Shown: positions 6,468 through 48,991, numbered from the stretch's first letter. The stretch is DNA of 64,000 bases from an uncultured Akkermansia sp. (GCA_964430505.1 CAYSGH010000010.1:13959-77958), one strand, 5' to 3'. The notes: generated by a model from the sequence alone, not told the origin. Made by a program: numbers and translations.

Positions 6468-7448
6468 CTAGTCCTCGGCCTTGGTGTCCCGTCCGAGCAA
6501 ATCCTGCACCGCACGACGCGGCTCCTTGTCCTCGTACAACATCGCGTGCACCTCGCGGATGATCGGCGCATCCACCCCAAGGCGCACCGCCAGCTCATGG
6601 GCCGACAATGCGCACGGATGCCCCTCCACCACCGACGTCGCCGACGCGAGCAGTTCACGGACGCTTCCGCCGCGCCCCAGCTTCTCGCCAAACGACCGGT
6701 TCCGGCTCAGGCGCGAAAAGCACGTCACCATCAGGTCGCCCAGCCCGCTCAACCCGGCGAACGTCTCCCCTCGCGCCCCGCGGGCCATGCCCAACCGGCG
6801 CACCTCCGCCTGCCCACGTGTCACGAGCGCCGCCTTCGAGTTGTCCCCGAAGCCCAGCCCGTCGCACACGCCCGCCGCGATCGCGATCACGTTCTTCAGC
6901 GCCCCCCCCAGCTCCACCCCGGTCAGGTCTGTGCTCGTGTACACGCGAAACGACGCCCGGTGAAACCACCCCTGAACCCGCCGCGCCACCGACGCATCGG
7001 CCGATGCCGCCACCACCGCCGTGGGCACCCCGCGCGCCACCTCCAATGCCAGCGACGGCCCCGACAACGCCGCCGTCACCGTTCCCGGCAGCTCCTGCTC
7101 CAGGATCCCGGACATGGTCAGGCCCGTCGTCGCCTCGATGCCCTTCGTCGCGCTCACCACCACCCCGCCGAACCCCCGCATCCCGCGCGCCACCTGGCGC
7201 AGTACCGCCGAGGGCACTGCCACCACCACCCCGTCCGCGCCTTTCAGCGCCGCGTGCAAGTCGGGTTGAAACTCCATGTCCCCGGGCAGGCTCACCCCGG
7301 CCAGCGCCCTCGCGTGAACCCGGTCGCGCGCCAGCGCCTCCAAGGTCGCCGCGTCGTGGCCCCAGACGCGCACCGCATGGCCGTTGTGCCGAAGCACGCA
7401 CGCCAGCGCCGTCCCCCATGCCCCGGCACCCACCACCGTCAGCGTCAT
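6468..7448 (-). CDS. gpsA: NAD(P)H-dependent glycerol-3-phosphate dehydrogenase
   Basis: ATG at 7448 gives MTLTVVGAGAWGTALACVL (Rossmann GxGxxG). It also has GALKNVIAIAAGVCDGLGFGDNSKAALVTRG. The 581-aa ORF in the track is an upstream extension over plsY and was rejected. Confidence 0.93.
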   Translation of the reverse strand: MTLTVVGAGAWGTALACVLRHNGHAVRVWGHDAATLEALARDRVHARALAGVSLPGDMEFQPDLHAALKGADGVVVAVPSAVLRQVARGMRGFGGVVVSATKGIEATTGLTMSGILEQELPGTVTAALSGPSLALEVARGVPTAVVAASADASVARRVQGWFHRASFRVYTSTDLTGVELGGALKNVIAIAAGVCDGLGFGDNSKAALVTRGQAEVRRLGMARGARGETFAGLSGLGDLMVTCFSRLSRNRSFGEKLGRGGSVRELLASATSVVEGHPCALSAHELAVRLGVDAPIIREVHAMLYEDKEPRRAVQDLLGRDTKAED

Positions 7449-37298: not shown

Positions 37299-40200
37299 AT
37301 GAATCCCGAAGTCCGCACACCGTCCGGCATCCGGGACAACCACCAACGTGGGACCGTCGGGAACTTTCTGCGTCATCACCTGAGACCGGGAGCCGACCTC
37401 GATCTCGTCACCGCCTACTTCACCGTGTACGCCCATGACCGGTTGAAGTCGGAGCTGGCATCCTTGGGACGCGTTCGTCTCCTCTTTGGGGAGGCCGCCT
37501 TCATCCACACGCTCGACCCGGGCAGGAAGGACGGGGCCGCCTACGTGCTCACCGACGATGGCCTTTCGCTTCCTGCGGGCCTCTCCCAGCGGCACGTCGC
37601 CCGCGCCTGCGCCGACTGGATCCGCGAACGGGTGGAGGTTCGGTCGGTCACGCGCACGGGATTCCTCCACGGCAAGATGTCCCACGTGCGACGCGGCGAG
37701 TTGTCCGCCGCCATTGTGGGCAGCTCCAACTTCACCACGCGCGGCCTCGGGCTCGCCGAGGCCAACAACAACGTGGAGTTGAACCTCGTGGTGAGCGACG
37801 ACCGCGACCGCATGGACCTCGCCACGTGGTTCGAGGAGCTTTGGAACGACCCCGCCCGCGTGGAGGACGTGAAGGCCCGCGTCCTGGAATACCTGTCGCA
37901 GGTCTATCGCGACCAACCCCCCGAGTTCATCTACTTCAAGACGCTGTTCCACCTCTTCAAGCCGTTCCTCGAAAGCGGCACCGACCTCGACGCGGCTCTC
38001 CAGCGGACCACGCTGCTGGAGGCGGCGATCTGGAAGGCCCTGTTCTCCTTCCAGAAGGACGGCGCAAAGGCCGCCATCAACAAGCTGCGCGAGCACGGCG
38101 GATGCATCCTCGCGGACAGCGTCGGACTCGGGAAAACCTTCGAGGCCCTCGCAGTCATCAAGTACTTCGAGCTGAAGAACGAGCGCGTCCTTGTGCTCTG
38201 CCCCAGGAAGCTGGCCGACAACTGGCTCATCTACCGCCAGAACAGCGCCCTCAACCCCTTCGAGAAGGACCGGTTCCGCTACGACGTCCTGCACCACACC
38301 GACCTCTCGCGCGAGTCCGGCCTCTCCAACGGCATCGACCTCGCCTCCCTCAACTGGAGCAACTACGACCTCGTCGTCATCGACGAGTCCCACAACTTCC
38401 GCAACAACACCGTCGGCCCCAAGGGCGACGATGGCCAACCCGTGCGGCGCACGCGTTACGAGCGGCTCATCGAGGACATCATCGGCAAGGGCATTCGCTC
38501 CAAGGTCCTGCTCCTCTCCGCCACCCCGGTCAACAACGAGCTCGCCGACCTCCGCAACCAAATCTCCTTCATCGCAGGTGGCGACGTCGCCCGGGATCCC
38601 AGGGTGGACGCCGCCTTCGCAACCACGCTCGGCGTCCGCAGCCTCAAGGCCACCACCCGCGACGCCCAGGTCCGCTTCACCACGTGGGCCAAGCGCCCCC
38701 CGAACGAACGCGACAAGAAGGACCTCATCCATGTTCTGGGCGGAGACTTCCTCAAGCTCCTCGACGCCCTCACCATTGCCCGGTCCCGCCGCCACATCGC
38801 CACCCATTACGAGGCGGAGATGAAGCGGCTGGGCGGCTTTCCTAAGCGCCTTCCGCCCGCGTCCATCCACTCGGAGATCGACTCGGCGGGGGCCTTCCCC
38901 AGCTACGACGACGTCGCGGCCAAGCTGGACCAGTACAAGCTGTGGCTATTCCGGCCCTCGGAGCACTTGCGCCAGGACCTGCCCCGGGACACGCGGGACG
39001 CCTACGAGCGGCGCATCGGCGGGTTCACCCAGCAAGGCCGCGAGCGCATCCTGACCGGCATGATGCGCGTCAGCCTCCTCAAGCGCCTCGAAAGCTCCAT
39101 CGACTCCTTCCGCATCTCCCTCCGGCGGATGCTGGGGAAGATCGAGCATCTGGAGGCCCGGATGGCGCGCTTCGAGAAGTTCCAGCAGGAGAACCCCAAC
39201 CTCGACCACGACACGCTCGGCCCCGAGGAGCTGGATGACCCCGAGCTGGCGGAGGCCCTGGAGGTGGGCCGCCGGACCACCTTCAAGATGGCCCACCTCG
39301 ACCTCGACCTGTGGCGCGTCCACCTGGCAGACGACCGCCTTCAGCTCAGCGCCTTGCTCCTGCTGGCCGAGCCCATCCATCCCAGCCGCGACGCCAAGCT
39401 CGCGGAGTTGAAGGCCCGGATTGCCAGCAAGGCCCGGAACCCCACCCTGGACAAGGACGGCCAGCCCAACCGCAAGGTCCTCGTCTTCACCGCCTACGCG
39501 GACACCGCCCGCTACCTGTACGACCAGTTGCACCCATGGGCCCGGCAGGAGCTGGGCCTCCATGCCTCATTGGTGGTGGGCAGTGGCGAGAACGCATCCA
39601 CTTACACCGCCTCCACCAGCTTCACCGACGTGCTCCTCGACTTTTCACCCCGCTCCAAGCGGCGTGCCGAGCTTCGCGCAAAGCCCGATTCCGCAGAGGT
39701 GGACCTTCTCGTCGCCTCCGACTGCATCTCCGAGGGCCAAAACCTCCAGGACTGCGACACGGTCATCAATTACGACATCCACTGGAACCCCGTCCGCATC
39801 GTCCAGCGCTTTGGCCGCATCGACCGCATCGGATCCAAGGCCGTCTCCGTTCACCTCGTCAACTTCTGGCCCACCGCGCACCTCGACCGCTACATCAACC
39901 TCAAGCTGCGCGTGGAGGCACGCATGGCGCTGGTGGACCTCGCCGCCACCCAGACCGACAACCCCCTCGACGAGCAGCAGATCGAGGACCTCGTCACCGC
40001 CGACCTGCGCCTCCGAGACCGCCAGCTTGTCCGCCTCAAGGACGAGGTGCTCGACCTCGAAGACCTCGACGACGCCGTCACCCTGGCAGACTTCTCCCTC
40101 GACGACTTCCGCCTCGACCTCCTGCGGTACCTGGAGGCCAACCGTGCGCGGCTCGAACAGGCTCCTTCGGGGCTTTACGCCGTGGTGCCCTCGGTGGCCT

Positions 40201-40649
40201 CCATTCCCATCGCCCAACCCGGGGCCATCTTCTGCCTGCGCCACAAAGGCGGCGAGTCCGCCGCCAAGAACGACAAGGTCAACCCGCTCAATCCGCACTA
40301 CCTGGTGTATGTCCATGCCGACGGCCAGGTGCGGATGACGTTCACGCAGTCCAAGTCCGTCCTGAACCTGTGTCGCGAGCTGGCGCTCGGGAAGACGGAA
40401 CCCTACGCGGAATTCTGCCGCCTGTTTGACCGTCAGACCGAGCAGGGGAGCAACCTGTGCGCCTACGATGACATGCTGCGCAGCGCCGTGACGTCGATCA
40501 CCGCGACGTTCCAACAGAAGCTCGCCGCCGGTTTGCAGAGTGGACGCCAGTTCATCCTGCCCACGCTGGAAGAACAGGTGGCCGCCGATTCAGAGTTCGA
40601 GCTGCTCACTTGGCTCGTGATCCTGTCACCGGCGTCGCCCGGCACCTGA
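37299..40649 (+). CDS. PLD-family (single HKD) nuclease domain fused to a SNF2-type SF2 helicase
   Basis: HKD motif GFLHGKMSHV...AIVGSSNFTTRGLG. SNF2 motifs ILADSVGLGKTFEALAV (I), DLVVIDESHNFRN (II), LLLSATPVNN (III), DCISEGQNLQDC...DIHWNPVRIVQRFGRIDRIGS (V/VI). ATG 37299 is preferred over TTG 37284. Confidence 0.9.
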   Translation: MNPEVRTPSGIRDNHQRGTVGNFLRHHLRPGADLDLVTAYFTVYAHDRLKSELASLGRVRLLFGEAAFIHTLDPGRKDGAAYVLTDDGLSLPAGLSQRHVARACADWIRERVEVRSVTRTGFLHGKMSHVRRGELSAAIVGSSNFTTRGLGLAEANNNVELNLVVSDDRDRMDLATWFEELWNDPARVEDVKARVLEYLSQVYRDQPPEFIYFKTLFHLFKPFLESGTDLDAALQRTTLLEAAIWKALFSFQKDGAKAAINKLREHGGCILADSVGLGKTFEALAVIKYFELKNERVLVLCPRKLADNWLIYRQNSALNPFEKDRFRYDVLHHTDLSRESGLSNGIDLASLNWSNYDLVVIDESHNFRNNTVGPKGDDGQPVRRTRYERLIEDIIGKGIRSKVLLLSATPVNNELADLRNQISFIAGGDVARDPRVDAAFATTLGVRSLKATTRDAQVRFTTWAKRPPNERDKKDLIHVLGGDFLKLLDALTIARSRRHIATHYEAEMKRLGGFPKRLPPASIHSEIDSAGAFPSYDDVAAKLDQYKLWLFRPSEHLRQDLPRDTRDAYERRIGGFTQQGRERILTGMMRVSLLKRLESSIDSFRISLRRMLGKIEHLEARMARFEKFQQENPNLDHDTLGPEELDDPELAEALEVGRRTTFKMAHLDLDLWRVHLADDRLQLSALLLLAEPIHPSRDAKLAELKARIASKARNPTLDKDGQPNRKVLVFTAYADTARYLYDQLHPWARQELGLHASLVVGSGENASTYTASTSFTDVLLDFSPRSKRRAELRAKPDSAEVDLLVASDCISEGQNLQDCDTVINYDIHWNPVRIVQRFGRIDRIGSKAVSVHLVNFWPTAHLDRYINLKLRVEARMALVDLAATQTDNPLDEQQIEDLVTADLRLRDRQLVRLKDEVLDLEDLDDAVTLADFSLDDFRLDLLRYLEANRARLEQAPSGLYAVVPSVASIPIAQPGAIFCLRHKGGESAAKNDKVNPLNPHYLVYVHADGQVRMTFTQSKSVLNLCRELALGKTEPYAEFCRLFDRQTEQGSNLCAYDDMLRSAVTSITATFQQKLAAGLQSGRQFILPTLEEQVAADSEFELLTWLVILSPASPGT

Positions 40650-40660
40650 TCGCCGCGCCC

Positions 40661-42181
40661 ATGGTCGCCAAGCAGTCCATCTTCATCAGCTCCGTCCAGA
40701 AGGACCTGGCCGCCGAGCGCCGGGCCCTGAAGGACTTCGTGCAGGGCGATCCCTTGCTCCGCCAATTCTTCGAGGTGTTCCTGTTCGAGGACTTGCCGGC
40801 CTCGGACCGCCGCGCCGACGAGGTCTATCTGGCCGAGGTGGACCGCTGCGCCCTCTACGTCGGCCTGTTGGGCAACGAATACGGCCGTGAGGACGCGGCC
40901 GGGATTTCGCCCACCGAACACGAGTTCAACCGGGCGACCGCCGCGGGCAAGCCCCGCTTCATCTACGTCCGGGGCACGGATGACTCCGCCCGCCATCCCA
41001 AGATGCGGGCGCTCGTGCGCCGGGCCGGGGACCAGCTCATCCGACGGCGTTTCAGCGGCATCGCTGAACTCAATGCTGCCGTTTACTCCAGCCTGGTGGA
41101 GCTGCTCGGCCACCGGGGAATGCTCCGCACGGTGCCGTTTGATGCAGCAGCCTGCCCCGGGGCCACGCTGGCCGACATGGTGCCTGACAAGGTTGGGGCG
41201 TTTCTGGCCCGGGCCGGCCACACGCGCGGCTACGCGCTGGCGCCCGGCACCCCCATGTCCGACGCCCTGACGCACCTGAACCTGCTCGACGGGGAGACGC
41301 CCAATCACGCCGCCCTGTTGCTGTTTGGCCGGGACCCGCAGCGCTGGCTCATTTCCTCGGCCGTGAAGTGCCTGCATTTTCACGGCGCCGAAGTGCGCAA
41401 GCCGATCCCCTCCCACCAGGTGTATCGCGGCACCGTGTTCGATCTCGTGGACCAGGCGGTGGACTTCGTGATGTCCAAGGTCGCCCGTTCGGTCGGCACC
41501 CGGGCCGCCTCCAATGCCGTCCCGGTCGCCTACGAACTGCCCCGCGAGGCGGTGGCCGAAGCCATCGTCAACGCCGTGGCCCACCGCGACTACGCCTCCA
41601 ACGCCTCCGTGCAGGTCATGCTGTTCGCCAACCGCCTGGAAGTGTGGAATCCCGGCGAACTGCCCGCCTCGCTGACCCCCGAGCGACTCACCCGTCCCCA
41701 TGCGTCCATTCCGCGGAATCCGCTGCTGGCCGGACCGCTGTTCCTCGCGGGCTACATCGAGCAGGCCGGCACCGGCACGCTCGACATGATTGCCCGCTGC
41801 CGCGACGCGGGACTACGGGCGCCGGAATTCCACCAGGATGGCGCCAGCTTCATCCAGACTCTCTGGAGACCGGCACCGGAAGTCAGCCCACAGGATACAG
41901 GGCAAGTCACGGGGCAAGTCACGGGGCAAGTCACGGGGCAAGTCAGCCGGGAAGTGGAGCGCCTGCTCCGCGTGTTGGACGGCGAGATGACGCGGTTGGA
42001 AATCCAGGAACGCCTCGACCTCAAAGGCCGGGCCAACTTCGAGGAACGCTATCTCCAGCCAGCGCTTCAGGGAGGCCACGTTGAACGCACCATTGCCGAC
42101 AAGCCCCAAAGCCGCCTCCAAAGATACCGCCTCACCGCCCAGGGCCGCGCCTGGCGGGTGAGCCAATCCAAGAGCACCTGA
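40661..42181 (+). CDS. DUF4062-like N-terminal domain fused to a RecG-like ATP-binding (HATPase_c_4) / winged-helix putative regulator
   Basis: N-terminal SIFISSVQKDLAAERRALKDFV...EVYLAEVDRCALYVGLLGNEYG (DUF4062-like). Middle AALLLFGRDPQRWL...KCLHFHG. EAIVNAVAHRDYASNASVQVMLFANRLEVWNPG...IEQAGTGTLDM (HATPase_c_4-like). (GQVT)x4 linker. C-terminal RLEIQERLDLKGRANFEERYLQPAL wHTH-like tail. Confidence 0.8.
   Translation: MVAKQSIFISSVQKDLAAERRALKDFVQGDPLLRQFFEVFLFEDLPASDRRADEVYLAEVDRCALYVGLLGNEYGREDAAGISPTEHEFNRATAAGKPRFIYVRGTDDSARHPKMRALVRRAGDQLIRRRFSGIAELNAAVYSSLVELLGHRGMLRTVPFDAAACPGATLADMVPDKVGAFLARAGHTRGYALAPGTPMSDALTHLNLLDGETPNHAALLLFGRDPQRWLISSAVKCLHFHGAEVRKPIPSHQVYRGTVFDLVDQAVDFVMSKVARSVGTRAASNAVPVAYELPREAVAEAIVNAVAHRDYASNASVQVMLFANRLEVWNPGELPASLTPERLTRPHASIPRNPLLAGPLFLAGYIEQAGTGTLDMIARCRDAGLRAPEFHQDGASFIQTLWRPAPEVSPQDTGQVTGQVTGQVTGQVSREVERLLRVLDGEMTRLEIQERLDLKGRANFEERYLQPALQGGHVERTIADKPQSRLQRYRLTAQGRAWRVSQSKST
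41900..41947 (+). repeat. In-frame 12-nt tandem repeat (gggcaagtcacg x4) encoding (GQVT)4
   Basis: Four consecutive units read directly from the sequence. The last unit is degenerate (gggcaagtcagc). Confidence 0.92.
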
Positions 42182-42188
42182 TTTCCTC

Positions 42189-42404
42189 ATGCCTTCCCAT
42201 CCCGAGCTTCTGCCGCGGACCAAGTCCGCCCTTGGCGCTGGCGACCGCCGGCTTCGGTGTGCCGTGACCTCAAGCATCGCGACGTCCCCGCAGAAGCTCG
42301 CCGCAGGGTTGCCGAGCCGCCGCCCGTTCCTCCTGCCCACACGGGACAAAAAGGTGGCAGCCGATTCCGAGTTTGAGCTGCTGACCTGGTTCCTCATTCT
42401 CTAG
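42189..42404 (+). pseudogene. 71-codon ORF whose last 47 codons are a diverged duplicate of the helicase C-terminus (relic or small helicase-tail protein)
   Basis: 42261-42401 aligns codon-for-codon with 40485-40625 (AVTSSIATSPQKLAAGLPSRRPFLLPTRDKKVAADSEFELLTWFLIL versus AVTSITATFQQKLAAGLQSGRQFILPTLEEQVAADSEFELLTWLVIL). By hand, 33 of 47 codons are identical. Confidence 0.5.
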
Positions 42405-42475
42405 CCATGAGACCCGCCGACATGAGCATGGGCTCCCAAGTCACTCACATCCCTACACACAAGCAGTAAGGTCTC

Positions 42476-45400
42476 ATGCCCGACCCAAACTTCCGACAAC
42501 AGCTTGCGGATGCTCTTTCCGACTTTGCCCGCGCGCCCTTGGCCGAGGCTTCGACCACGTTCTTCGGCAAGCTCGGCTACGGCAGCAAGCGGCGTCTCCA
42601 GTTTCCTTCGCTGACGGGGCTGCTCGCACAGTTCGACACGTCTGGCAGCGTGGCGGAAAAGCTGCCCAAGACTGGCTCCAAGAGCCCGGTCACCGTGGTG
42701 CAACTTACCAGTGAAGAAATCGCCGCAAACTCCGGTGGACAGTTGGCTTCGCTTGCCGGCAGCGGAGCCGACCTTCGCCAGATCGAGTCTTACCTCTTCC
42801 TCACGATTGCCCTGCCGGAATCGGACTACACCCGCACTCAACTGGCGGACTACGCCCGCGCCATTAATTCGCTGTTTCCCCAGCCGGTTCTCGTCCTGTT
42901 CCAGCACGGCGGGACAATCTCGTTGGCGATCACCTACCGGCGCACCAACAAGCGCGATGCTTCTCGGGATGTTATCGCCCGGAAGGTCACGCTCATCCGC
43001 GATATTGCCTGCGCTCAACCGCACTCCGGCCACCTTGCGATTCTCGAAGACTTCTCGCTTCCTGCACTATCCCGTGCCCGCCAACGCGACATCCGTAGTT
43101 TCGCCGACCTCGACGACGCCTGGCGCGAATCGCTTTCCACGCAGCTTCTCAATCGGGAGTTCTACCGCGAAATCGCCAACTGGTATTTCTGGGCGCGCGA
43201 ACACGCGATCTTTCCGAAGGACGCTCCGCTCGACGCCGACGGCAAGCCTTCGCTTCCGCTAATTCGACTGCTGACCCGCCTGATCTTCTGCTGGTTTCTG
43301 CGCGAGAAGTCGCTCCCCGGACTCGGCACGCTTATCCCGGCGGACTTGTTCGATTCGGCCTGCATCCGCCGTTTCCTGCGCGATTCCTCGCCGGAGGCCA
43401 CCACCTATTACACCGGCATCCTCCAGAATTTGTTTTTTGCGACTCTCAACGCCGAGATGGACGAGCCGGGCCGGCCGCAGAAGCGCCACTTTATCGGCGA
43501 AGGGGAGGAGGACGAGGCGGATGAGCACTTCAACGCCGCCGTCTGGCGCAACAAAAGGCTGCTGGCCAAGGATGCCGAAACGGAGGTTGAAACGCTCTTC
43601 CGACGCATTCCCTTCCTCAACGGCGGTCTCTTTGAATGCCTCGACGAACCCGTCTTCGACCAGAAGGGCAAGAAGACCGGCGAAAAACGCGTGGACGGTT
43701 TCTCAACCAAACCTTCCAAGCAGGCGAGGGTTCCCAATTTCCTCTTCTTTGGTCCCGACCAAACCGTGGACCTGTCCGGCACCTACGGCGACAGCTCGCG
43801 GCGGCAGGAAACCGTCAGGCCATTGCTGGAGATCTTTCGCGGCTACAAATTCACCCTCACCGAAAACACGCCCATCGAGGAAGAAGTCGCGCTGGACCCT
43901 GAGTTGCTTGGCCACGTTTTCGAGAACCTCCTCGCCGCCTTCAATCCCGAGACCGGAACCATCGCCCGAAAGGCCACCGGTTCCTTCTACACGCCGCGAG
44001 TCGTGGTGGACTGGATGGTGGACGAAGCCCTTGTCGCCTACCTCACCGGGCGCGTTCCCGCTGCGACCGAAGCGCAAGTTCGCGACCTGCTTTCATGGGA
44101 ACGCGACACGCATGAGATCCCTCCCGAGACCGTTTCTTCCCTGGTTGACGCAGTGGACTCGCTCAAGTCGCTCGACCCCGCGTGTGGTTCGGGTGCTTTC
44201 CCAATGGGACTGCTGCAAAAGCTGGTTCACCTCCTCCGCAAGCTTGACCCCAACAACAAACAATGGCGTGCGCGGCAACAGGCTGCGGTCGAGGCGATGG
44301 ATAGTTCCACCGCGAGGGAGGTGGCGTTCGCCGCCTTGGAAAAGGCGTTCGCCCACGACGAGGACGACTATGGTCGCAAGCTCTACCTCATCGAGAACTG
44401 CCTCTACGGCGTGGACATCCAACCCATCGCCGTCCAGATAGCGAAGCTGCGGTTCTTCATCGCCCTCGTTGTCGAGCAAACCATCGCGCCTGACCGGTTC
44501 AACTACGGCATCCTTCCGCTGCCCAACCTCGAAACGAAGATTGTCGCAGCCAACACACTCCTGGGGCTGCGGCGCGGCCAGCTCATGCTGGGATCGAATG
44601 AAGTCCGCTCCCTTGAGGGACAGCTTCAACGTGTGCGCCATGACTACTTCACCGCACGTCGCTACACGGACAAGAAGGCGCTGCGAACGCGTGATCGTGA
44701 ACTCTGCCGCAAATTGGCCACGGCGCTGGCCAGCAGCGGCGAATGCTCGCCTGCCGACGCACAGCGCCTGGCCGACTGGAATCCCTATGACACCAACCGC
44801 GAGGCTCCGTTCTTCGACCCGGGCTGGATGTTCGGCCTTGCGGTCGGCCGACAGCGCCCCAGCGCGGCGACACTGCGCGGCAACCTGGCCGCCATCGTCA
44901 ACCGGACGGCGGGGCAGATGGAGTTGGGCGCTGCGCCTCCGCCCGATCCGGGCTTCGACATCATCCTGGGCAACCCGCCTTATGTCCGTCAGGAGGAGCT
45001 GAAAAACGTGAGCGTAACAGACAGCGCTGGCCGCCCGCGCCCGCTCAAGGAGGTGCTCAAGGAGCAATACGAATGCTTCACCGGCACCGCCGACCTCTAC
45101 GTCTATTTCATCGAGCGCTCCCTCCAGCTCCTCCGCATCGGCGGCGTCCTCAGCTTCATCACCAGCAACAAGTACTTCCGCGCCGCCTATGGCGAACGCC
45201 TTCGCGCCTACCTCCTCTACGCAACCCGCCCGCGCGTGCTCCTCGATTTCGGCGACGCCCCGCTCTTCACCGCCATCGCCTATCCCTGCATCCTCGTGGT
45301 GCAAAAGACCCGCGCCTTGGAAAAGGGCGGGCTGCCTCCAACGGATAAATTCCAAAACGAGACGACCTTCCGCCAGCTCATCTCAGACGAGGCGGCGGCC

Positions 45401-46588
45401 TCGAAGATCCGAGTCTTCCCGTGGACGCCAGGCCCGCCACTCCGCGACTTCCCGGCGATCTTTGAAGAGAAAAGTTTCAATCTCGAACAACGCGAGCTGA
45501 AACCCGGTGGGTGGAAGTTCCAATCGGATGCAAACCGAAGTGTTCGGCGACGAATGGAGCAGGGATCGAACCCCCTCGGCAAATTTACGGGCGATTTAGT
45601 GATTAATGGGGTTAAGTCAGGCGGCAAAGACGCATTCGTGCTTTCTACTAAGGAACGGGATGCCCTGCTAAAGCTTGAGCCGCAGGCCGGGCGCATCGTC
45701 CGTCGCCTGCTCAAGGGCAGAGACATTAAGCGATGGTGCGTAACTGAGGAAGATCGGTGGCTAATTTACATGCCTTGGCATTTTCCATTGAACGATGACG
45801 CGACAATTACCCGCGCCAGCAAGAAGGCAGAAGATGAGTTCAAAGCAAAGTATCCGGCGACCTATGCTCATCTTGCGCAGTTCAAGGATATGTTGTCGGC
45901 GCGAGACCAAGCGGAGACTGGAATTCGCTATGAGTGGTATTGCTTAGCCCGACCGCGGCCGGAAGCTGAGCCGTTCTTCTCAAAGCCTAAAATTGCTTTC
46001 CCAGATATCGCTGCTGCGCCGTGCTTCGCTTGGGATGAGGGTGACCACGCTATTGAAAACACTGCATATTTGATCCCAGGCAATAAGTGGATTCTTGGCG
46101 TGCTGAACTCGCCGGCAGTATTTTGGTATTGCCTTCAAATCAGCAACACAATTCGTGGCGGCTACGTTCGCTTCATTCGCCAGTATGTGGAACAAATTCC
46201 CATTCCAACAGCAAGCGCCGAGGAACAACAGTGGTGCGAGCGATTGGCGGAAGCGTTGATTTTCCTGCACCGCCCGGAAGTGGCCGCTGGGGCGGGGGCC
46301 GCGCCGGTGAGCCTGATGGCCGCGTGGTTCGAGCAGTGGCTGAACGGGCTGGTCTATGAGCTTTTCTTCCGCGCGGAGCTCCACGCTCGCCACCTCCGCC
46401 TCTTCGAGGAAACCGCCAAACCCACCAGCGCCCCGCCCGCCCTTGCCCCGCTACGCGACGACCCCGCGAAGCTCGCCGCTCTCCAAGCCTGCTTCGAGCG
46501 GACCTACGACGTCAACCACCCCCTCCGGGCCATGCTCTTCTCCCTCCGCTCCCTCGAACCCATCCGCATCATCGAAGGCGAGGCATGA
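42476..46588 (+). CDS. Large gamma-class N6-adenine DNA methyltransferase (Eco57I/PglX/DrmMI-like) with a C-terminal target-recognition region
   Basis: Motif I LDPACGSGAFPMGLL (about residue 566) precedes motif IV ILGNPPYVRQEE (about residue 831). Eco57I-type YVYFIERSLQLLRIGGVLSFITSNKYF. TaqI_C-like LKGRDIKRWCVTEEDRWLIYMPW. 1370 aa. Confidence 0.9.
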   Translation: MPDPNFRQQLADALSDFARAPLAEASTTFFGKLGYGSKRRLQFPSLTGLLAQFDTSGSVAEKLPKTGSKSPVTVVQLTSEEIAANSGGQLASLAGSGADLRQIESYLFLTIALPESDYTRTQLADYARAINSLFPQPVLVLFQHGGTISLAITYRRTNKRDASRDVIARKVTLIRDIACAQPHSGHLAILEDFSLPALSRARQRDIRSFADLDDAWRESLSTQLLNREFYREIANWYFWAREHAIFPKDAPLDADGKPSLPLIRLLTRLIFCWFLREKSLPGLGTLIPADLFDSACIRRFLRDSSPEATTYYTGILQNLFFATLNAEMDEPGRPQKRHFIGEGEEDEADEHFNAAVWRNKRLLAKDAETEVETLFRRIPFLNGGLFECLDEPVFDQKGKKTGEKRVDGFSTKPSKQARVPNFLFFGPDQTVDLSGTYGDSSRRQETVRPLLEIFRGYKFTLTENTPIEEEVALDPELLGHVFENLLAAFNPETGTIARKATGSFYTPRVVVDWMVDEALVAYLTGRVPAATEAQVRDLLSWERDTHEIPPETVSSLVDAVDSLKSLDPACGSGAFPMGLLQKLVHLLRKLDPNNKQWRARQQAAVEAMDSSTAREVAFAALEKAFAHDEDDYGRKLYLIENCLYGVDIQPIAVQIAKLRFFIALVVEQTIAPDRFNYGILPLPNLETKIVAANTLLGLRRGQLMLGSNEVRSLEGQLQRVRHDYFTARRYTDKKALRTRDRELCRKLATALASSGECSPADAQRLADWNPYDTNREAPFFDPGWMFGLAVGRQRPSAATLRGNLAAIVNRTAGQMELGAAPPPDPGFDIILGNPPYVRQEELKNVSVTDSAGRPRPLKEVLKEQYECFTGTADLYVYFIERSLQLLRIGGVLSFITSNKYFRAAYGERLRAYLLYATRPRVLLDFGDAPLFTAIAYPCILVVQKTRALEKGGLPPTDKFQNETTFRQLISDEAAASKIRVFPWTPGPPLRDFPAIFEEKSFNLEQRELKPGGWKFQSDANRSVRRRMEQGSNPLGKFTGDLVINGVKSGGKDAFVLSTKERDALLKLEPQAGRIVRRLLKGRDIKRWCVTEEDRWLIYMPWHFPLNDDATITRASKKAEDEFKAKYPATYAHLAQFKDMLSARDQAETGIRYEWYCLARPRPEAEPFFSKPKIAFPDIAAAPCFAWDEGDHAIENTAYLIPGNKWILGVLNSPAVFWYCLQISNTIRGGYVRFIRQYVEQIPIPTASAEEQQWCERLAEALIFLHRPEVAAGAGAAPVSLMAAWFEQWLNGLVYELFFRAELHARHLRLFEETAKPTSAPPALAPLRDDPAKLAALQACFERTYDVNHPLRAMLFSLRSLEPIRIIEGEA

Positions 46589-48582
46589 GAATTACGCGAA
46601 TCGTCCTAAACGACTTCCGGGGATTTCCGGGGCAGGCCAATTTCGAATTCCGGCTTGATGGCAGTAACCTACTGCTCTTCGGCGAAAATGGGAGCGGCAA
46701 ATCCTCGCTGTTCGTCGCGCTGCGCGAATTCTTCGACCTCAGAATGAATCCGGCACCTTTCGGCCGGTTTCGCAACGTTTTCACGCGTGATGCGACTGGC
46801 CAACCGCTGACTTGTGGAAGGGTCGGTGTGGAGTTCGACGACGGCACGGGGTTGCACACATGGGACATCGTGAACGATGTGCGACCGCACGCCGCGCAAC
46901 CGGTAGCCGATACCGCACTGCGCTTTGGAGCGGTTGATTACCGCGCGATGCTGAAGACGAACTTCGTCCATGAAAGCGGCTATCCGAACCTATTCGACTT
47001 GCTGGTGAACGGGGTCCTGAACCGGATGCCCGTGTTGGTGGCAGGCGGTGCTCAAACCACATTGGGAGATCTCGATGCGCGGATGAGGGCCGCGAAGCCT
47101 GAACGGCATTACCCTAGTCAACTTGCCAAAGTCGATGCCGCATGTCTTGCGCTCAACCAAGCGCTGCAAAATCACCTCCCGCAGGTCGTCGCCACAGCGA
47201 ACCAGATTCTCTCTGTGTTTGGAAACATCGGAGTCACGTTTCAGCTCATTCCTCCACCACTCCCGGTGAACCCACCGCAGGATCCCGCTCCAGCCAATCC
47301 ACCCCACCTTCGCTACGATCGGGCAGCCCGGAACTTCAAGAACATGAAGATTGACTTCGTGGCGCAACTCAATGGCCATGGCCCTGACGAGCCTCAGCAC
47401 TTTCTCAACGAGGCGCGACTGTCCGCAATTGCGATCTCGATCTATCTGGCGGCGCTGCGGGCAAGCATGCCTCCCAATCCCGTCGGCGCGAATCCGCCCG
47501 CGAAAGTCATGCTACTGGACGATGTTCTCATCGGCCTCGACATGTCGAATCGCCAACCGATCCTCGACGTTCTTACCCGAGTTGATCGCCCGAATGCACC
47601 GGGATTCGCTGATTGGCAGGTGCTCCTGCTTACCCACGATCAGGGATGGTATTCACTTGCTCGCAGGCGACTCAGGAACTGGCGCGCGGTGCGCCTCGCA
47701 TCAGGCCACAGTGGAACCTACGACGTGCCGATCCTCTATGACGACACGTCTCTAATTGAACGTGCTGTGCATCATCTTAACGTCTCCGGCGATGAACGCG
47801 CCGCAGGAGTGTATCTGCGAACCGCGTTTGAGGAGATGATTAAGTCGTTTTGCGCCCGGACGCGAACCCCAGTCGCTTACCACCGGGCTGATGAGCACCC
47901 GAAGTCGACCAATGTATTCTGGCAACCGATCTGCGCCGTCAAGGTAGGACGCGTACTTTTGATCGATGCTGGATTGAAACGGGACGTGGAATCAGCCCGC
48001 AGCAATGTCGCCAACCCGTTGTGCCATTTCGGGAACAGTATGCCATTGTACAGCGAGACGGTGAGCGCGATTTCCATCCTGCGTCGGCTACAAATTCGAC
48101 TTGATTCGTATCCAGACAAAAATGCTGATCCGCCACAGCACCCTCGCACTGCGCTGGATTTGGCGCAGGAGGCCTGCGCGGCGGCGGCCAATTTTTCCCC
48201 TTGGACTGCCGCTGTCCACTTGAGATCGGCTTTCGACGATTCCGTTTCTAGGCTGGCAGCAAGGTGGAGCGTCCAAGTGACTTACTCCATCAACTTGTTG
48301 GACTTTGCGACACAGCGCCTTTGGAACCTGCTGCGGCAAGCTCCCAGCGGCCTAGCAACGACTCATGCAACACACGTTGCCGGCATACACGCGCACTCGG
48401 ATATTTTTCTTCAAGAGTTGGATCCAACCGCCATAGCTCGACGCAATCAGGGCTACTTCCAATCAGCTCTTTTAGCTTTGCTCCATTCGGGAACTCCTGT
48501 GCCCGGCCTTCCGTCTCCTGGCTTAAGTTCGGCAACGGCTGCGTCATCTTCGTCTACAACGTGGCTAGATGCTGTTCCGTAA
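46585..48582 (+). CDS. ABC-type (AAA_13/PrrC-RloC-like) ATPase with an unassigned C-terminal domain of about 300 aa
   Basis: The ATG overlaps the MTase stop (ATGA at 46585-46588). Walker A LFGENGSGKSSLF, signature-like FLNEARLSAIAISIYLAAL, Walker B/D-loop VMLLDDVLIGLDMSNR, H-loop VLLLTHDQGWY. The C-terminal half has YLRTAFEEM and NVANPLCHFGNS. Confidence 0.8.
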   Translation: MRITRIVLNDFRGFPGQANFEFRLDGSNLLLFGENGSGKSSLFVALREFFDLRMNPAPFGRFRNVFTRDATGQPLTCGRVGVEFDDGTGLHTWDIVNDVRPHAAQPVADTALRFGAVDYRAMLKTNFVHESGYPNLFDLLVNGVLNRMPVLVAGGAQTTLGDLDARMRAAKPERHYPSQLAKVDAACLALNQALQNHLPQVVATANQILSVFGNIGVTFQLIPPPLPVNPPQDPAPANPPHLRYDRAARNFKNMKIDFVAQLNGHGPDEPQHFLNEARLSAIAISIYLAALRASMPPNPVGANPPAKVMLLDDVLIGLDMSNRQPILDVLTRVDRPNAPGFADWQVLLLTHDQGWYSLARRRLRNWRAVRLASGHSGTYDVPILYDDTSLIERAVHHLNVSGDERAAGVYLRTAFEEMIKSFCARTRTPVAYHRADEHPKSTNVFWQPICAVKVGRVLLIDAGLKRDVESARSNVANPLCHFGNSMPLYSETVSAISILRRLQIRLDSYPDKNADPPQHPRTALDLAQEACAAAANFSPWTAAVHLRSAFDDSVSRLAARWSVQVTYSINLLDFATQRLWNLLRQAPSGLATTHATHVAGIHAHSDIFLQELDPTAIARRNQGYFQSALLALLHSGTPVPGLPSPGLSSATAASSSSTTWLDAVP

Positions 48583-48931
48583 TTACAAGAGCCAGAATTC
48601 CCTATGTTCGCGACGGAGTCACGGCTGTCATGCCGGGGTTAGGCTGGTCTTAAGGTCGTTGATTGGCCCCCTTGTGAACATCACGACGGTTCTTTCAGAT
48701 CCCGCATCCTTCATCAGTCATGGCGAGGCATTGTACCAACTCATTTTGACTGTAGAAGCGCCACGTAGTGAGGGCGATGGCAAAAGAATTTGTTTGAACG
48801 GCCGTATTGAGTTGGTTCCCGTGGTCGATGGTTTGTGTTTGCCTCGATTCACTGGATAGAAAAGCCGGTACAAAGACTCCATCAGCATCGCGGGCACGTA
48901 GGCTCCCCAGTCGCAAGCCAGCCCCTGGACT

Positions 48932-48991
48932 AGTACCCGCCCCCCCCGCCTCCCGCCCCTCGCTTCCCGCTTCCCGCCTCCCGCTTCCCCG
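48932..48991. repeat. G-rich intergenic element, copy 2 (C-rich on the plus strand)
   Basis: The reverse complement ...GGCGGGAAGCGGGAAGCGAGGGGCGGGAGGCGGGGGGGGCGGGTACT matches 29531-29575. The first 18 nt are identical, and identity is about 85% over about 47 nt by hand alignment. Confidence 0.8.

What the first reader, a model, noticed from the sequence alone, without database searches (positions are those of the whole stretch)
40485..42404. Diverged 141-nt duplication of the helicase 3-prime end brackets an inserted gene cassette
The last 47 conserved codons of the helicase (40485-40625, ...AVTSITATFQQKLAAGL...VAADSEFELLTWLVIL) recur in frame at 42261-42401 (...AVTSSIATSPQKLAAGL...VAADSEFELLTWFLIL) followed directly by TAG. 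By my hand alignment, 33 of 47 residues are identical and the two copies are the same length.

The first copy reads on for 7 extra codons (SPASPGT*). The DUF4062/HATPase_c_4 gene and about 80 nt lie between the copies. The second copy ends 71 nt before the methylase ATG, which looks like the ancestral helicase-methylase junction.

This suggests one of two events. The accessory gene may have entered by recombination using helicase-tail homology. Alternatively, the helicase plus cassette may have been swapped in from a related system, leaving the old tail. The relic keeps an ATG-initiated 71-codon ORF (42189..42404). It could still be made as a free helicase-tail peptide next to the methylase.
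Basis: seen in the sequence. Interest (0 to 1): 0.7.

Follow-up and report, generated by a model that had tools for sequence, protein, structure and literature searches.

The report
Recombination scar in a defence operon
A decayed second copy of the end of a helicase gene, fused to the first 17 codons of a lost methylase gene, marks the spot where DNA from a related anti-phage system, carrying an accessory gene, was spliced into this operon; it is a real but ordinary evolutionary scar.

Summary
Window 40485-40625 and 42261-42401 align without gaps (111/141 nt, 33/47 aa). A profile of the helicase C-terminus built from 120 homologues hits the second copy at E about 2e-11.

The second copy is a decayed fragment of a helicase of the same clade as the resident one. 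It is not a universal feature: of about 165 independent homologous loci, only one other carries a second tail.

Its ATG and first ~17 codons (42189-42239) are the start of a different methylase gene. That gene is intact in a related contig (L002), which has helicase, the same DUF4062 cassette, then its methylase 7 nt later, with no relic. The join to the helicase tail lies in a short microhomology (~42229-42239).

Upstream, the helicase becomes L002-like only from ~40131. I therefore read ~40131-42238 as a patch from an L002-like system, integrated by one homologous crossover in the helicase and one illegitimate join, which stranded the old tail.

The helicase-methylase slot is a common cargo site: about 28 of the ~66 loci where both genes could be placed.

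Strain variants have since deleted the methylase and ATPase. No evidence supports a function for the relic peptide. This is a known kind of event, of modest interest.

The parts
37299..40649 (+). HKD/PLD + SNF2 helicase-nuclease gene (1116 aa), the restriction-type core gene of the operon
   Evidence: Pfam PLDc_2, SNF2-rel_dom, ResIII, Helicase_C. PADLOC C3a139 'HKD+Snf2', 410 bits. The search returned its capped maximum of 8000 homologues, the best 120 of which are 56-99% identical.
40131..42238 (+). Inferred imported patch of L002-like DNA: helicase 3' ~500 nt, the cassette, and the donor methylase start
   Evidence: Informative sites: window=L002 244 vs window=L003 207 upstream of 40131, and 76 vs 19 downstream (max chi-square 21.7, 0 of 1000 permutations reach it). 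dS window-L002 is 0.80 for helicase codons 1-944, 0.44 for codons 945-1116 and 0.39 for cassette codons 1-405. blastn to L002 ends at 42238.
40461..40625 (+).
   Evidence: Tail HMM 120 bits. The motif ..TFQQKLAAGLQSGRQF.LPT..EQ....FELVTWLVI is conserved in all 120 best homologues.
40661..42181 (+). Embedded accessory gene: DUF4062 + HATPase_c_4 + Fic-like_C winged helix (506 aa)
   Evidence: Pfam. 81% aa identity to the L002 gene in the same slot. The same architecture sits in the same slot in L054 and L061.
42189..42239 (+). 5' remnant (~17 codons, MPSHPELLPRTKSALGA) of an L002-type methylase gene, with its start codon 7 nt after the cassette stop
   Evidence: Window 42096-42238 = L002 7352-7494, 84.6% identity, E = 2e-40. 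The L002 methylase ATG is at 7445.
42229..42239 (+). Illegitimate junction: a short stretch that matches both the methylase start and the helicase tail (roughly CCTKGSGC)
   Evidence: Three-way comparison of the window relic, the L002 methylase start and window copy 1.
42237..42404 (+). Copy 2: decayed relic of the last ~55 codons of a helicase of the same clade, ending in TAG
   Evidence: Tail HMM 44.4 bits, E = 2e-11. Closest to the window/L002/L003 clade tails (alignment score 155-169), against <=107 for the other surveyed loci. dN/dS 0.23. Changes at invariant columns F1071, L1106 and V1107.
42189..42404 (+). Chimeric 71-codon ORF (methylase start fused in frame to helicase tail); a by-product, probably translated
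   Evidence: No Pfam or PADLOC family. The identical ORF is called on six metagenome contigs.
42405..42475 (+). 71-nt spacer before the resident methylase; flanked by a perfect 9-nt inverted repeat CATGAGACC/GGTCTCATG that includes the methylase ATG
   Evidence: the repeat finder pair I3. The predicted fold is no more stable than shuffled sequence, z = 0.16.
42476..46588 (+). Resident Eco57I-type N6-adenine methylase with TaqI_C specificity domain (1370 aa)
   Evidence: Pfam. Only 37% aa identity to the L002 methylase. 66-71% to its nearest relatives, whose loci read helicase tail, methylase, ATPase.
46585..48582 (+). SMC/ABC-like ATPase, overlapping the methylase stop by 4 nt; third core gene
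   Evidence: Pfam SMC_N, AAA_23 and others, all below the curated cut-offs. 83% aa identity to the ATPase that follows the methylase in L007.

Best explanation
The duplication is a scar of recombination between two related defence operons of the same type: an HKD-SNF2 helicase-nuclease, an Eco57I-type methylase and an ATPase.

The most likely sequence of events is as follows.
1. The resident operon read helicase, short gap, methylase (42476-46588), ATPase.
2. DNA arrived from a related system organised like contig L002: helicase, DUF4062 accessory gene, a different methylase.
3. On the left it recombined by homology inside the helicase gene, at about 40131.
4. On the right it was joined illegitimately at a short microhomology (~42229-42239). 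That join linked codon ~17 of the donor's methylase to the resident helicase ~55 codons before its stop.
5. The result was a helicase with a new, intact 3' end, a newly embedded accessory gene, and the old tail stranded downstream as a fragment fused in frame to the donor methylase's start codon.

This is the pattern of homology-facilitated illegitimate recombination. The stranded tail has since accumulated changes at conserved residues and has no function of its own.

Shown directly: the duplication, the chimeric nature of the ORF, the relic-free L002 arrangement, the mosaic helicase, and the rarity of second tails. Inferred: which partner was resident, the single-event reading, and the recombination pathway.
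For: - L002 (helicase 87% aa identical) has helicase, the same cassette, then its methylase 7 nt later, with no relic.
- Window 42096-42238 matches L002 across the cassette end, the 7-nt spacer and the first 50 nt of the L002 methylase gene (84.6%, E = 2e-40). The match then stops, and helicase-tail similarity starts at ~42229 in an overlapping microhomology.
- The two methylases are only 37% identical, too divergent for a homologous right-hand crossover.
- Left boundary: the window is as far from L002 as from L003 over helicase codons 1-944 (dS 0.80 vs 0.67). It is half as far over codons 945-1116 and cassette codons 1-405 (dS 0.44 and 0.39). The maximum chi-square breakpoint is at 40131, reached by 0 of 1000 permutations.
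- The relic is closest to the tails of the window/L002/L003 clade, not to the helicases that sit beside the nearest relatives of the resident methylase. Its dS to L002-type tails (0.53-0.83) resembles that of the helicase 5' part. This fits the relic being this gene's own former tail.
- Decay: dN/dS is 0.23 against 0.07-0.15 for functional tails. There are substitutions at invariant columns. The HMM score is 44 bits against 76 bits for the same segment of an intact tail.
- The slot is a cargo site in about 28 of the ~66 loci with a placed methylase.
- Second tails are rare. The one other case (L074) has the same layout: helicase, a 251-aa methylase N-terminal fragment, a tail relic, then cargo and a complete methylase.
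- The pathway itself, with 3-10 bp microhomologies and one homologous anchor, is documented (PMC6382021, citing de Vries and Wackernagel 2002).
Against: - The direction cannot be proved. No contig with the proposed ancestor (this helicase with an intact relic-type tail next to this methylase) was found. The nearest methylase relatives are only ~70% identical, and the metagenome scan returned no close helicase relatives.
- The left breakpoint rests on three sequences. The helicase also shows another L002-like patch at 38799-39098, so more than one event may be involved.
- The relic is short. With about 30 differences, dN/dS alone cannot reject an old in-place duplication (my estimate).
- The nearest relatives of the resident methylase have a helicase stop that overlaps the methylase start or lies within 5 nt of it. 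The 71-nt spacer may therefore be a further, unexplained scar.
- GC content does not discriminate, because the L002 methylase is also ~61% GC.
Confidence: 0.6

Rival explanations
1. Same kind of scar, opposite history. An L002-like operon (helicase, cassette, methylase A) was resident. The methylase-ATPase module of a second system replaced methylase A from codon ~17 onward and dragged along the last ~55 codons of its own helicase. Equivalently, two complete systems lay in tandem and a microhomology-mediated deletion removed everything from methylase A codon 17 to the second helicase's codon -55.
For: - The junction structure is equally compatible with this history.
- Relic tail, methylase, ATPase is the standard gene order in the methylase's relatives L005-L010.
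- L074 and L023 also carry a truncated methylase 5' fragment upstream of a complete methylase, which looks like methylase replacement.
- Microhomology deletions do occur in this lineage: L091 has two.
Against: - It does not explain why the helicase becomes L002-like only from ~40131 unless a separate event is added.
- The relic tail belongs to the window helicase's own clade, not to the clade paired with the nearest relatives of this methylase and ATPase.
Confidence: 0.28
2. The chimeric 71-codon ORF is kept because it is useful. It could be a translated leader that carries ribosomes from the cassette stop to the methylase start. That would prevent polarity, or open the 9-bp stem that pairs with the methylase ATG. 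Alternatively it could be a free tail peptide that binds the methylase.
For: - The ORF keeps the donor methylase's start codon 7 nt after the cassette stop, a context suited to coupled translation.
- The fusion is in frame and open for 71 codons.
- A perfect 9-nt inverted repeat pairs the sequence just after the ORF stop with the methylase ATG.
- The tail is a highly conserved part of the helicase.
Against: - The predicted fold is no better than shuffled sequence, z = 0.16.
- The relic has lost family-invariant residues and has a raised dN/dS.
- An open frame of this length in 65% GC DNA, together with a 1-in-3 chance of an in-frame fusion, needs no selection (my estimate).
- Strains L091 and L092 keep the ORF but have lost the methylase it would serve.
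- Only one of ~165 independent loci has anything similar, and that relic has no evident start codon.
Confidence: 0.07
3. The tail was duplicated in place, by tandem duplication or by a site-specific element that copies the 3' end of its target gene. The cassette was cargo of that element.
For: Both copies have the same length and frame and bracket a single gene. Integrating elements that rebuild the 3' end of their target leave this kind of pattern (general knowledge).
Against: - The copies differ at 21% of positions with dS ~0.65.
- A methylase gene start lies between the cassette and the relic.
- The bracketed segment holds one gene and no integrase or transposase.
- L002 carries the same cassette with no duplication.
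- The longest identical run between the copies is 14 nt.
Confidence: 0.03

Closest known systems
Homology-facilitated illegitimate recombination (de Vries and Wackernagel 2002; summarised in PMC6382021)
   Same: One end of the foreign DNA is anchored by homology (the helicase gene). The other is joined at a short G+C-rich microhomology close to the anchor. Foreign DNA is gained and a short stretch of recipient DNA is lost.
   Different: It is known from laboratory transformation of Acinetobacter, Streptococcus pneumoniae and Pseudomonas stutzeri. Here it is only inferred from sequence, in an uncultured lineage. The anchor is ~80% identical rather than near-identical, and the route of DNA entry is unknown.
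Genes 'embedded' within Hma, BREX, DISARM and Type I restriction-modification operons (Payne et al. 2024, bioRxiv 10.1101/2024.01.29.577857)
   Same: An accessory gene sits between core genes, in the same orientation, in a slot that holds many different cargoes. In my survey about 28 of the ~66 loci with a placed methylase have cargo between helicase and methylase. That paper reports embedded genes in 62.7% of Hma systems.
   Different: A term search of that paper found no occurrence of 'recombination', 'acquired', 'exchange' or 'hotspot', so it does not appear to address how cargo gets in. This locus preserves both junctions of one such event.
Type-2 BREX-related ('BR', formerly Hma) systems: HKD + Swi2/Snf2 helicase, N6-methylase, DUF499 ATPase, DUF3780 (PMC12839542)
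   Same: An N-terminal HKD nuclease fused to a Snf2 helicase as the likely restriction effector, a large N6-adenine methylase, and an ATPase in one operon.
   Different: The ATPase here is SMC/ABC-like, not DUF499. No DUF3780 gene is present. The PADLOC HmaA match is partial (86 bits) and there is no HmaC match.
Unit of evolution spanning the 3' part of one gene, the intergenic region and the 5' part of the next (Tsuru and Kobayashi 2008, PMC2568036; known to me from its abstract)
   Same: Recombination breakpoints fall inside genes. A gene's tail therefore travels with its downstream neighbour's start, as with the relic tail plus methylase here, or the helicase 3' end plus cassette plus methylase start.
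   Different: That case concerns tandem paralogues within one species and homologous exchange. Here one junction is illegitimate and leaves dead fragments.
Duplication of a target gene's 3' end by integrating elements (for example islands in tRNA genes)
   Same: Two copies of a gene's end bracket the inserted DNA, and the upstream copy keeps the gene intact.
   Different: There is no integrase. The copies are 21% diverged rather than sharing an identical core, and a fragment of a third gene lies inside the bracket.

Membership tests
Scar of homology-facilitated illegitimate recombination | One boundary of the foreign segment lies within sequence homologous between donor and recipient (the anchor) | tested here: inconclusive
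   A change of relatedness occurs at ~40131 inside the helicase (max chi-square 21.7, 0/1000 permutations; dS 0.80 upstream against 0.44 downstream). It rests on three sequences, and another L002-like patch exists at 38799-39098.
Scar of homology-facilitated illegitimate recombination | The other boundary is an illegitimate join at a microhomology of a few base pairs | tested here: met
   The L002 methylase-start match ends at ~42238-42239 and the helicase-tail match begins at ~42229. The overlap matches both partners imperfectly.
Scar of homology-facilitated illegitimate recombination | RecA-dependent integration of incoming linear DNA | not testable with these tools
   Needs genetics in the host or a model organism.
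Non-functional gene fragment (pseudogene relic) | Truncated copy of a longer conserved gene, with relaxed constraint | tested here: met
   Only the last ~55 of 1116 codons are present. HMM score is 44 bits against 76 for the same segment of an intact tail. F1071S, L1106F and V1107L fall at invariant or nearly invariant columns. dN/dS is 0.23 against 0.07-0.15. The sample is small, about 30 differences.
Hma system as defined in PADLOC (HmaA helicase, HmaB methylase, HmaC ATPase) | All three proteins match the Hma models | tested here: not met
   The helicase hits HmaA only partially (86 bits, against 410 bits for C3a139 'HKD+Snf2'). The ATPase's 20 listed PADLOC hits include no HmaC. HmaB is not among the methylase's best 25 hits.
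Type-2 BREX-related system (PMC12839542) | DUF499 AAA+ ATPase and a standalone DUF3780 gene alongside the HKD-Snf2 helicase and N6-methylase | tested here: not met
   HKD-Snf2 helicase and N6-methylase are present. The ATPase matches SMC_N, AAA_23 and AAA_15 only, and no operon ORF matches DUF499 or DUF3780.
DISARM class 1 | DrmD helicase and DrmMI methylase together with DrmA, DrmB (DUF1998) and DrmC | tested here: not met
   NCBIfam DrmD scores 154.6 bits against a cut-off of 610. No DrmA or DrmB-like gene is in the operon.
Site-specific integrating element that duplicates its target's 3' end | A recombinase gene in the inserted segment and near-identical repeats at both ends | tested here: not met
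   The bracketed segment holds one gene with DUF4062, HATPase_c_4 and Fic-like_C domains. The repeats are 78.7% identical, with a longest identical run of 14 nt.

The most novel reading that the evidence does not exclude
Conserved core genes of multi-gene defence operons act as homology anchors through which embedded accessory genes are passed between related systems. When the downstream core gene is too diverged for a second homologous crossover, the join is illegitimate and leaves dead fragments. Such scars (this window, L074, L023, and the 3-codon remnant in L003) could then be used to trace the direction and frequency of cassette flow. In this family the last ~55 codons of the helicase may be a preferred boundary, because two independent junctions fall within ~15 nt there.
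Probability: 0.35. Interest if true: 0.45.

Novelty: new member of a known kind. Interest (0 to 1): 0.3.

Why it matters
Accessory genes nested inside restriction-like defence operons are now used to discover new anti-phage systems. The main paper on this approach does not appear to address how they get in: a term search of it found no mention of recombination, acquisition or exchange.

This locus preserves both ends of one such acquisition. It has a homologous boundary in the helicase gene and an illegitimate join that left a fragment of the donor's methylase gene fused to the old helicase tail. It therefore gives a concrete, testable route for cassette exchange between related systems.

Strain variants show what happens afterwards: loss of the methylase and ATPase, together with an in-frame deletion that disables the helicase.

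Beyond that, it is an ordinary recombination scar. It does not reveal a new gene, RNA or mechanism.

Tried and rejected
- GC content as a marker of foreign origin. The window's methylase and ATPase have lower GC than the helicase and cassette, but so does the L002 methylase (61%). The signal is uninformative.
- Looking for the donor or ancestor. The nearest methylase relatives are ~70% identical, and their helicase tails are of another type. The genome scan gave one helicase at 75% and the rest at 68% or below. The metagenome scan gave nothing above 56%. The exact methylase protein is not on record.
- A hairpin in the 71-nt spacer as a regulatory element. The 9-bp stem appears in the minimum-energy fold, but the fold is no more stable than shuffles, z = 0.16.
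- Promoter and terminator scan of the operon. There was nothing above the shuffled expectation.
- Structure prediction of the helicase, to see whether the tail is a separate module. The C-terminal 200 residues have pLDDT 30-50, so no inference was drawn and no fold search was run.
- dN/dS as a test between an in-place duplication and an imported copy. It is suggestive only, with about 30 differences.
- Filing the operon under Hma, Type-2 BR or DISARM. Defining components are missing or below cut-offs.
- Assembly artefact. Rejected, because six independent contigs carry the ORF.
Full report
**Observation**

Copy 1 runs on for seven codons to a stop at 40647-40649. Copy 2 is followed by TAG at 42402-42404. 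The methylase ATG is 71 nt further on, at 42476. The ORF 42189-42404 has 71 codons.

The similarity is far beyond chance. blastn gives E = 5e-29 in a self-comparison of 33-50 kb. A profile of the last 85 residues of 120 helicase homologues scores copy 2 at 44.4 bits, E about 2e-11. Weaker in-register similarity extends ~24-30 nt further upstream.

The exact 71-aa ORF is called on six contigs from at least five samples. One contig spans cassette end, relic and methylase start at 100% identity, so the arrangement is not an assembly artefact.

**The operon**

All genes are on the + strand:
- An HKD/PLD + SNF2 helicase, 37299-40649.
- A DUF4062 + HATPase_c_4 + Fic-like_C gene, 40661-42181.
- The 71-codon ORF, 42189-42404.
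- An Eco57I-type methylase with a TaqI_C specificity domain, 42476-46588.
- An SMC/ABC-like ATPase, 46585-48582.

The helicase family is large, and the named relatives are mostly Verrucomicrobiota. Its C-terminal tail is conserved in all 120 best hits, ending in FELVTWLVI. Copy 2 is therefore a fragment of a helicase of this family.

Copy 2 carries substitutions at invariant or nearly invariant columns (F1071S, L1106F, V1107L). Further changes fall in the well-conserved TFQ, GLQ and EQ motifs. Its dN/dS against functional tails is 0.23, compared with 0.07-0.15 among functional tails. It is decaying.

**What the relic ORF is made of**

Contig L002 has a helicase 87% identical in protein. It reads helicase, the same accessory gene, then a 1369-aa methylase starting 7 nt after the accessory gene's stop, with no relic.

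blastn aligns window 42096-42238 with L002 7352-7494 at 84.6% identity, E = 2e-40. That span covers the end of the accessory gene, the 7-nt spacer and the first 50 nt of the L002 methylase gene.

So the ATG at 42189 and the first ~17 codons of the ORF are the start of an L002-type methylase gene. The match to L002 stops at ~42238-42239, and the match to the helicase tail begins at ~42229. The few overlapping bases resemble both partners. The ORF is an in-frame chimera of a methylase start and a helicase end.

The window's full-length methylase is only 37% identical to the L002 methylase. The helicases are 87% identical. The accessory genes are 81% identical overall and nearly identical over the first ~410 residues.

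**The left boundary**

I compared the helicase genes of the window, L002 and L003. The three are roughly equidistant up to ~40130: sites where the window agrees only with L002 number 244, and only with L003, 207. Downstream, the window sides with L002, 76 to 19. The maximum chi-square is 21.7, reached in 0 of 1000 permutations.

Synonymous divergence gives the same picture. Window-L002 dS is 0.80 for helicase codons 1-944, 0.44 for codons 945-1116 and 0.39 for the first 405 codons of the accessory gene.

The relic's dS to L002-type tails is 0.53-0.83, like the helicase's 5' part. The relic is much closer to the tails of this clade (alignment score 155-169) than to any other surveyed tail (107 or less). 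That includes the tails found beside the nearest relatives of the window's methylase and ATPase.

**Best reading**

A segment of about 2.1 kb (~40131-42238) from an L002-like system was integrated into a resident operon. It comprised the helicase 3' end, the accessory gene and the start of the donor's methylase. The resident operon read helicase, short gap, methylase, ATPase.

On the left the join was a homologous crossover in the helicase. On the right it was an illegitimate join at a microhomology, ~55 codons before the resident helicase's stop. The resident tail was left behind as the relic.

This is the pattern of homology-facilitated illegitimate recombination, in which one homologous anchor is combined with a join at 3-10 bp of microhomology (PMC6382021, citing de Vries and Wackernagel 2002). 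The methylases are too diverged to offer a second homologous crossover, which explains why the right end is illegitimate.

I put 0.6 on this specific history. I put about 0.9 on the broader statement that the duplication is a non-functional scar of recombination between two related systems.

**Rival history**

The same structure would arise if the methylase-ATPase module, with the end of its own helicase, replaced the L002-type methylase. It would also arise if two systems in tandem were fused by a deletion.

Two points favour this. Tail, methylase, ATPase is the standard order in the methylase's relatives. Two other loci carry a methylase 5' fragment upstream of a complete methylase.

Two points count against it. 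It does not explain the boundary at 40131, and the relic belongs to the window helicase's own clade. No contig with either proposed ancestor was found, so the direction remains an inference.

**Comparison with other loci**

I collected about 175 loci of the family. In the first 90 loci I placed the methylase relative to the helicase stop in ~66:
- In about 37, the gap is -4 to +85 nt. A 71-nt gap is therefore compatible with a direct junction, although the closest methylase relatives have an overlap or 5 nt.
- In about 28, the gap is 250-3500 nt and holds cargo.

The cargo is varied:
- The same DUF4062 architecture (L002, L054, L061).
- Schlafen/AlbA_2 + HATPase_c_4 proteins.
- DUF1016/YhcG nucleases.
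- PDDEXK_3, Uma2 and Fic proteins.
- Toxin-antitoxin pairs.
- Bro-N and KilA-N proteins.
- IS200 transposases.

[quoted passage not shown] A term search of that paper found no mention of recombination, acquisition or exchange.

A second tail copy occurs only in the window's own strains and in L074, a Latescibacterota genome. L074 has the same layout: helicase, a 251-aa methylase N-terminal fragment fused to a sigma-70 fragment, a tail relic, two cargo genes, then a complete methylase. L023 has a ~215-aa methylase fragment before its complete methylase.

L003 and L004 keep the stop, spacer and first three codons of the DUF4062 gene, followed by a PDDEXK_3 gene.

Scars are therefore rare but recurrent.

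**Function of the relic**

The ORF probably is translated, because it keeps a start codon placed 7 nt after the upstream stop. Nothing indicates that the product matters:
- It has lost conserved residues.
- It matches no family.
- Strains L091 and L092 keep it although they have lost the methylase.

A perfect 9-nt inverted repeat pairs the sequence just after its stop with the methylase ATG. The fold is no more stable than shuffled sequence.

The helicase model was too poor in the C-terminal 200 residues to say whether the tail is a separate module.

**What the system is**

It works like a restriction-modification system with an HKD-Snf2 effector. It resembles the Type-2 BREX-related (formerly Hma) systems (PMC12839542, PMC8565338). 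It lacks their DUF499 ATPase and DUF3780 gene. It matches no curated NCBIfam family above cut-off, and it is not DISARM. I do not file it under any of these.

**Verdict**

This is a correct observation and a largely correct interpretation, now with both junctions mapped and the ORF shown to be a chimera. It is a new example of a known kind of event. It has some value as a worked case of how embedded defence genes are exchanged. Interest 0.3.

Noticed in passing
window 42446-48838 and 38438-40464; loci L091, L092: Strain variants from other samples (97-99.7% identical) lack 42446-48838, which holds the methylase and ATPase. L091 also has an in-frame helicase deletion of 38438-40464 at the microhomology ACGATGRC, leaving a 437-aa PLD/partial SNF2/tail protein. 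The system is being dismantled in part of the population. Losing the methylase together with disabling the helicase is what a restriction-type system would require.
   Followed up: partly
window ~40450-40471: Two independent illegitimate junctions fall within ~15 nt of each other at about -55 codons of the helicase. One is the relic's left junction (equivalent to 40450-40463). The other is the right end of the L091 deletion (40464-40471). I estimate the chance of this at roughly 1-2% for a 3.3-kb gene. Whether this is a hot spot or selection for keeping the tail is unexplained.
   Followed up: no
window 41900-41945: A perfect 12-nt tandem repeat, GGGCAAGTCACG x3.8, encodes (GQVT)x4 in the linker of the accessory protein. 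It is absent from L002, and contig L001 breaks exactly there. It could be a length-variable linker.
   Followed up: partly
window 41880-42096: The C-terminal winged-helix (Fic-like_C) part of the accessory protein is a different allele from L002 (dN 0.66, dS 1.18). The flanks are ~90% identical. This is a domain swap inside the cargo gene.
   Followed up: partly
L003 4216-4238 and L004: After the helicase stop these contigs keep the same 11-nt spacer and the first three codons (ATGGTCGCC) of the DUF4062 gene. They then diverge into a PDDEXK_3 nuclease gene. This is another cargo replacement with a breakpoint just inside the replaced gene.
   Followed up: partly
L074 13249-15036; L023 13492-14427: These are independent scars in a Latescibacterota and a Poribacteria genome. 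L074 has a 251-aa methylase N-terminal fragment fused to a sigma-70 region 1.2/2 fragment, followed by a helicase tail relic. L023 has a ~215-aa methylase N-terminal fragment just upstream of the complete methylase.
   Followed up: partly
window 42406-42414 and 42470-42478: A perfect 9-nt inverted repeat, CATGAGACC/GGTCTCATG, flanks the 71-nt spacer and includes the methylase start codon. The first arm contains ATGA placed like the stop/start overlap seen in relatives. The spacer may be a further scar.
   Followed up: partly
window 45400-46200 (methylase residues ~963-1253) and 42476-42770 (residues 1-98): GC drops to 51-55% over the TaqI_C specificity region. That region is only 20-54% identical to otherwise 80-90% identical relatives, as expected for a swapped target-recognition domain. 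The first ~100 residues are also unusually diverged (39-46%).
   Followed up: partly
window 46585-48582 vs L007: The ATPase is 83% identical to that of L007, while the adjacent methylase is 70% identical and the helicase tails belong to different clades. Core genes of this family reassort. The 150-aa gene that follows the ATPase in L002 and L005 is absent here.
   Followed up: partly
window 48936-48989: A C-rich heptamer array (CCCGCCT x6.4) lies in the ~580-nt non-coding stretch between the ATPase and the next, high-GC gene. The right end of the L091/L092 deletion (48839) lies ~100 nt upstream of it.
   Followed up: no
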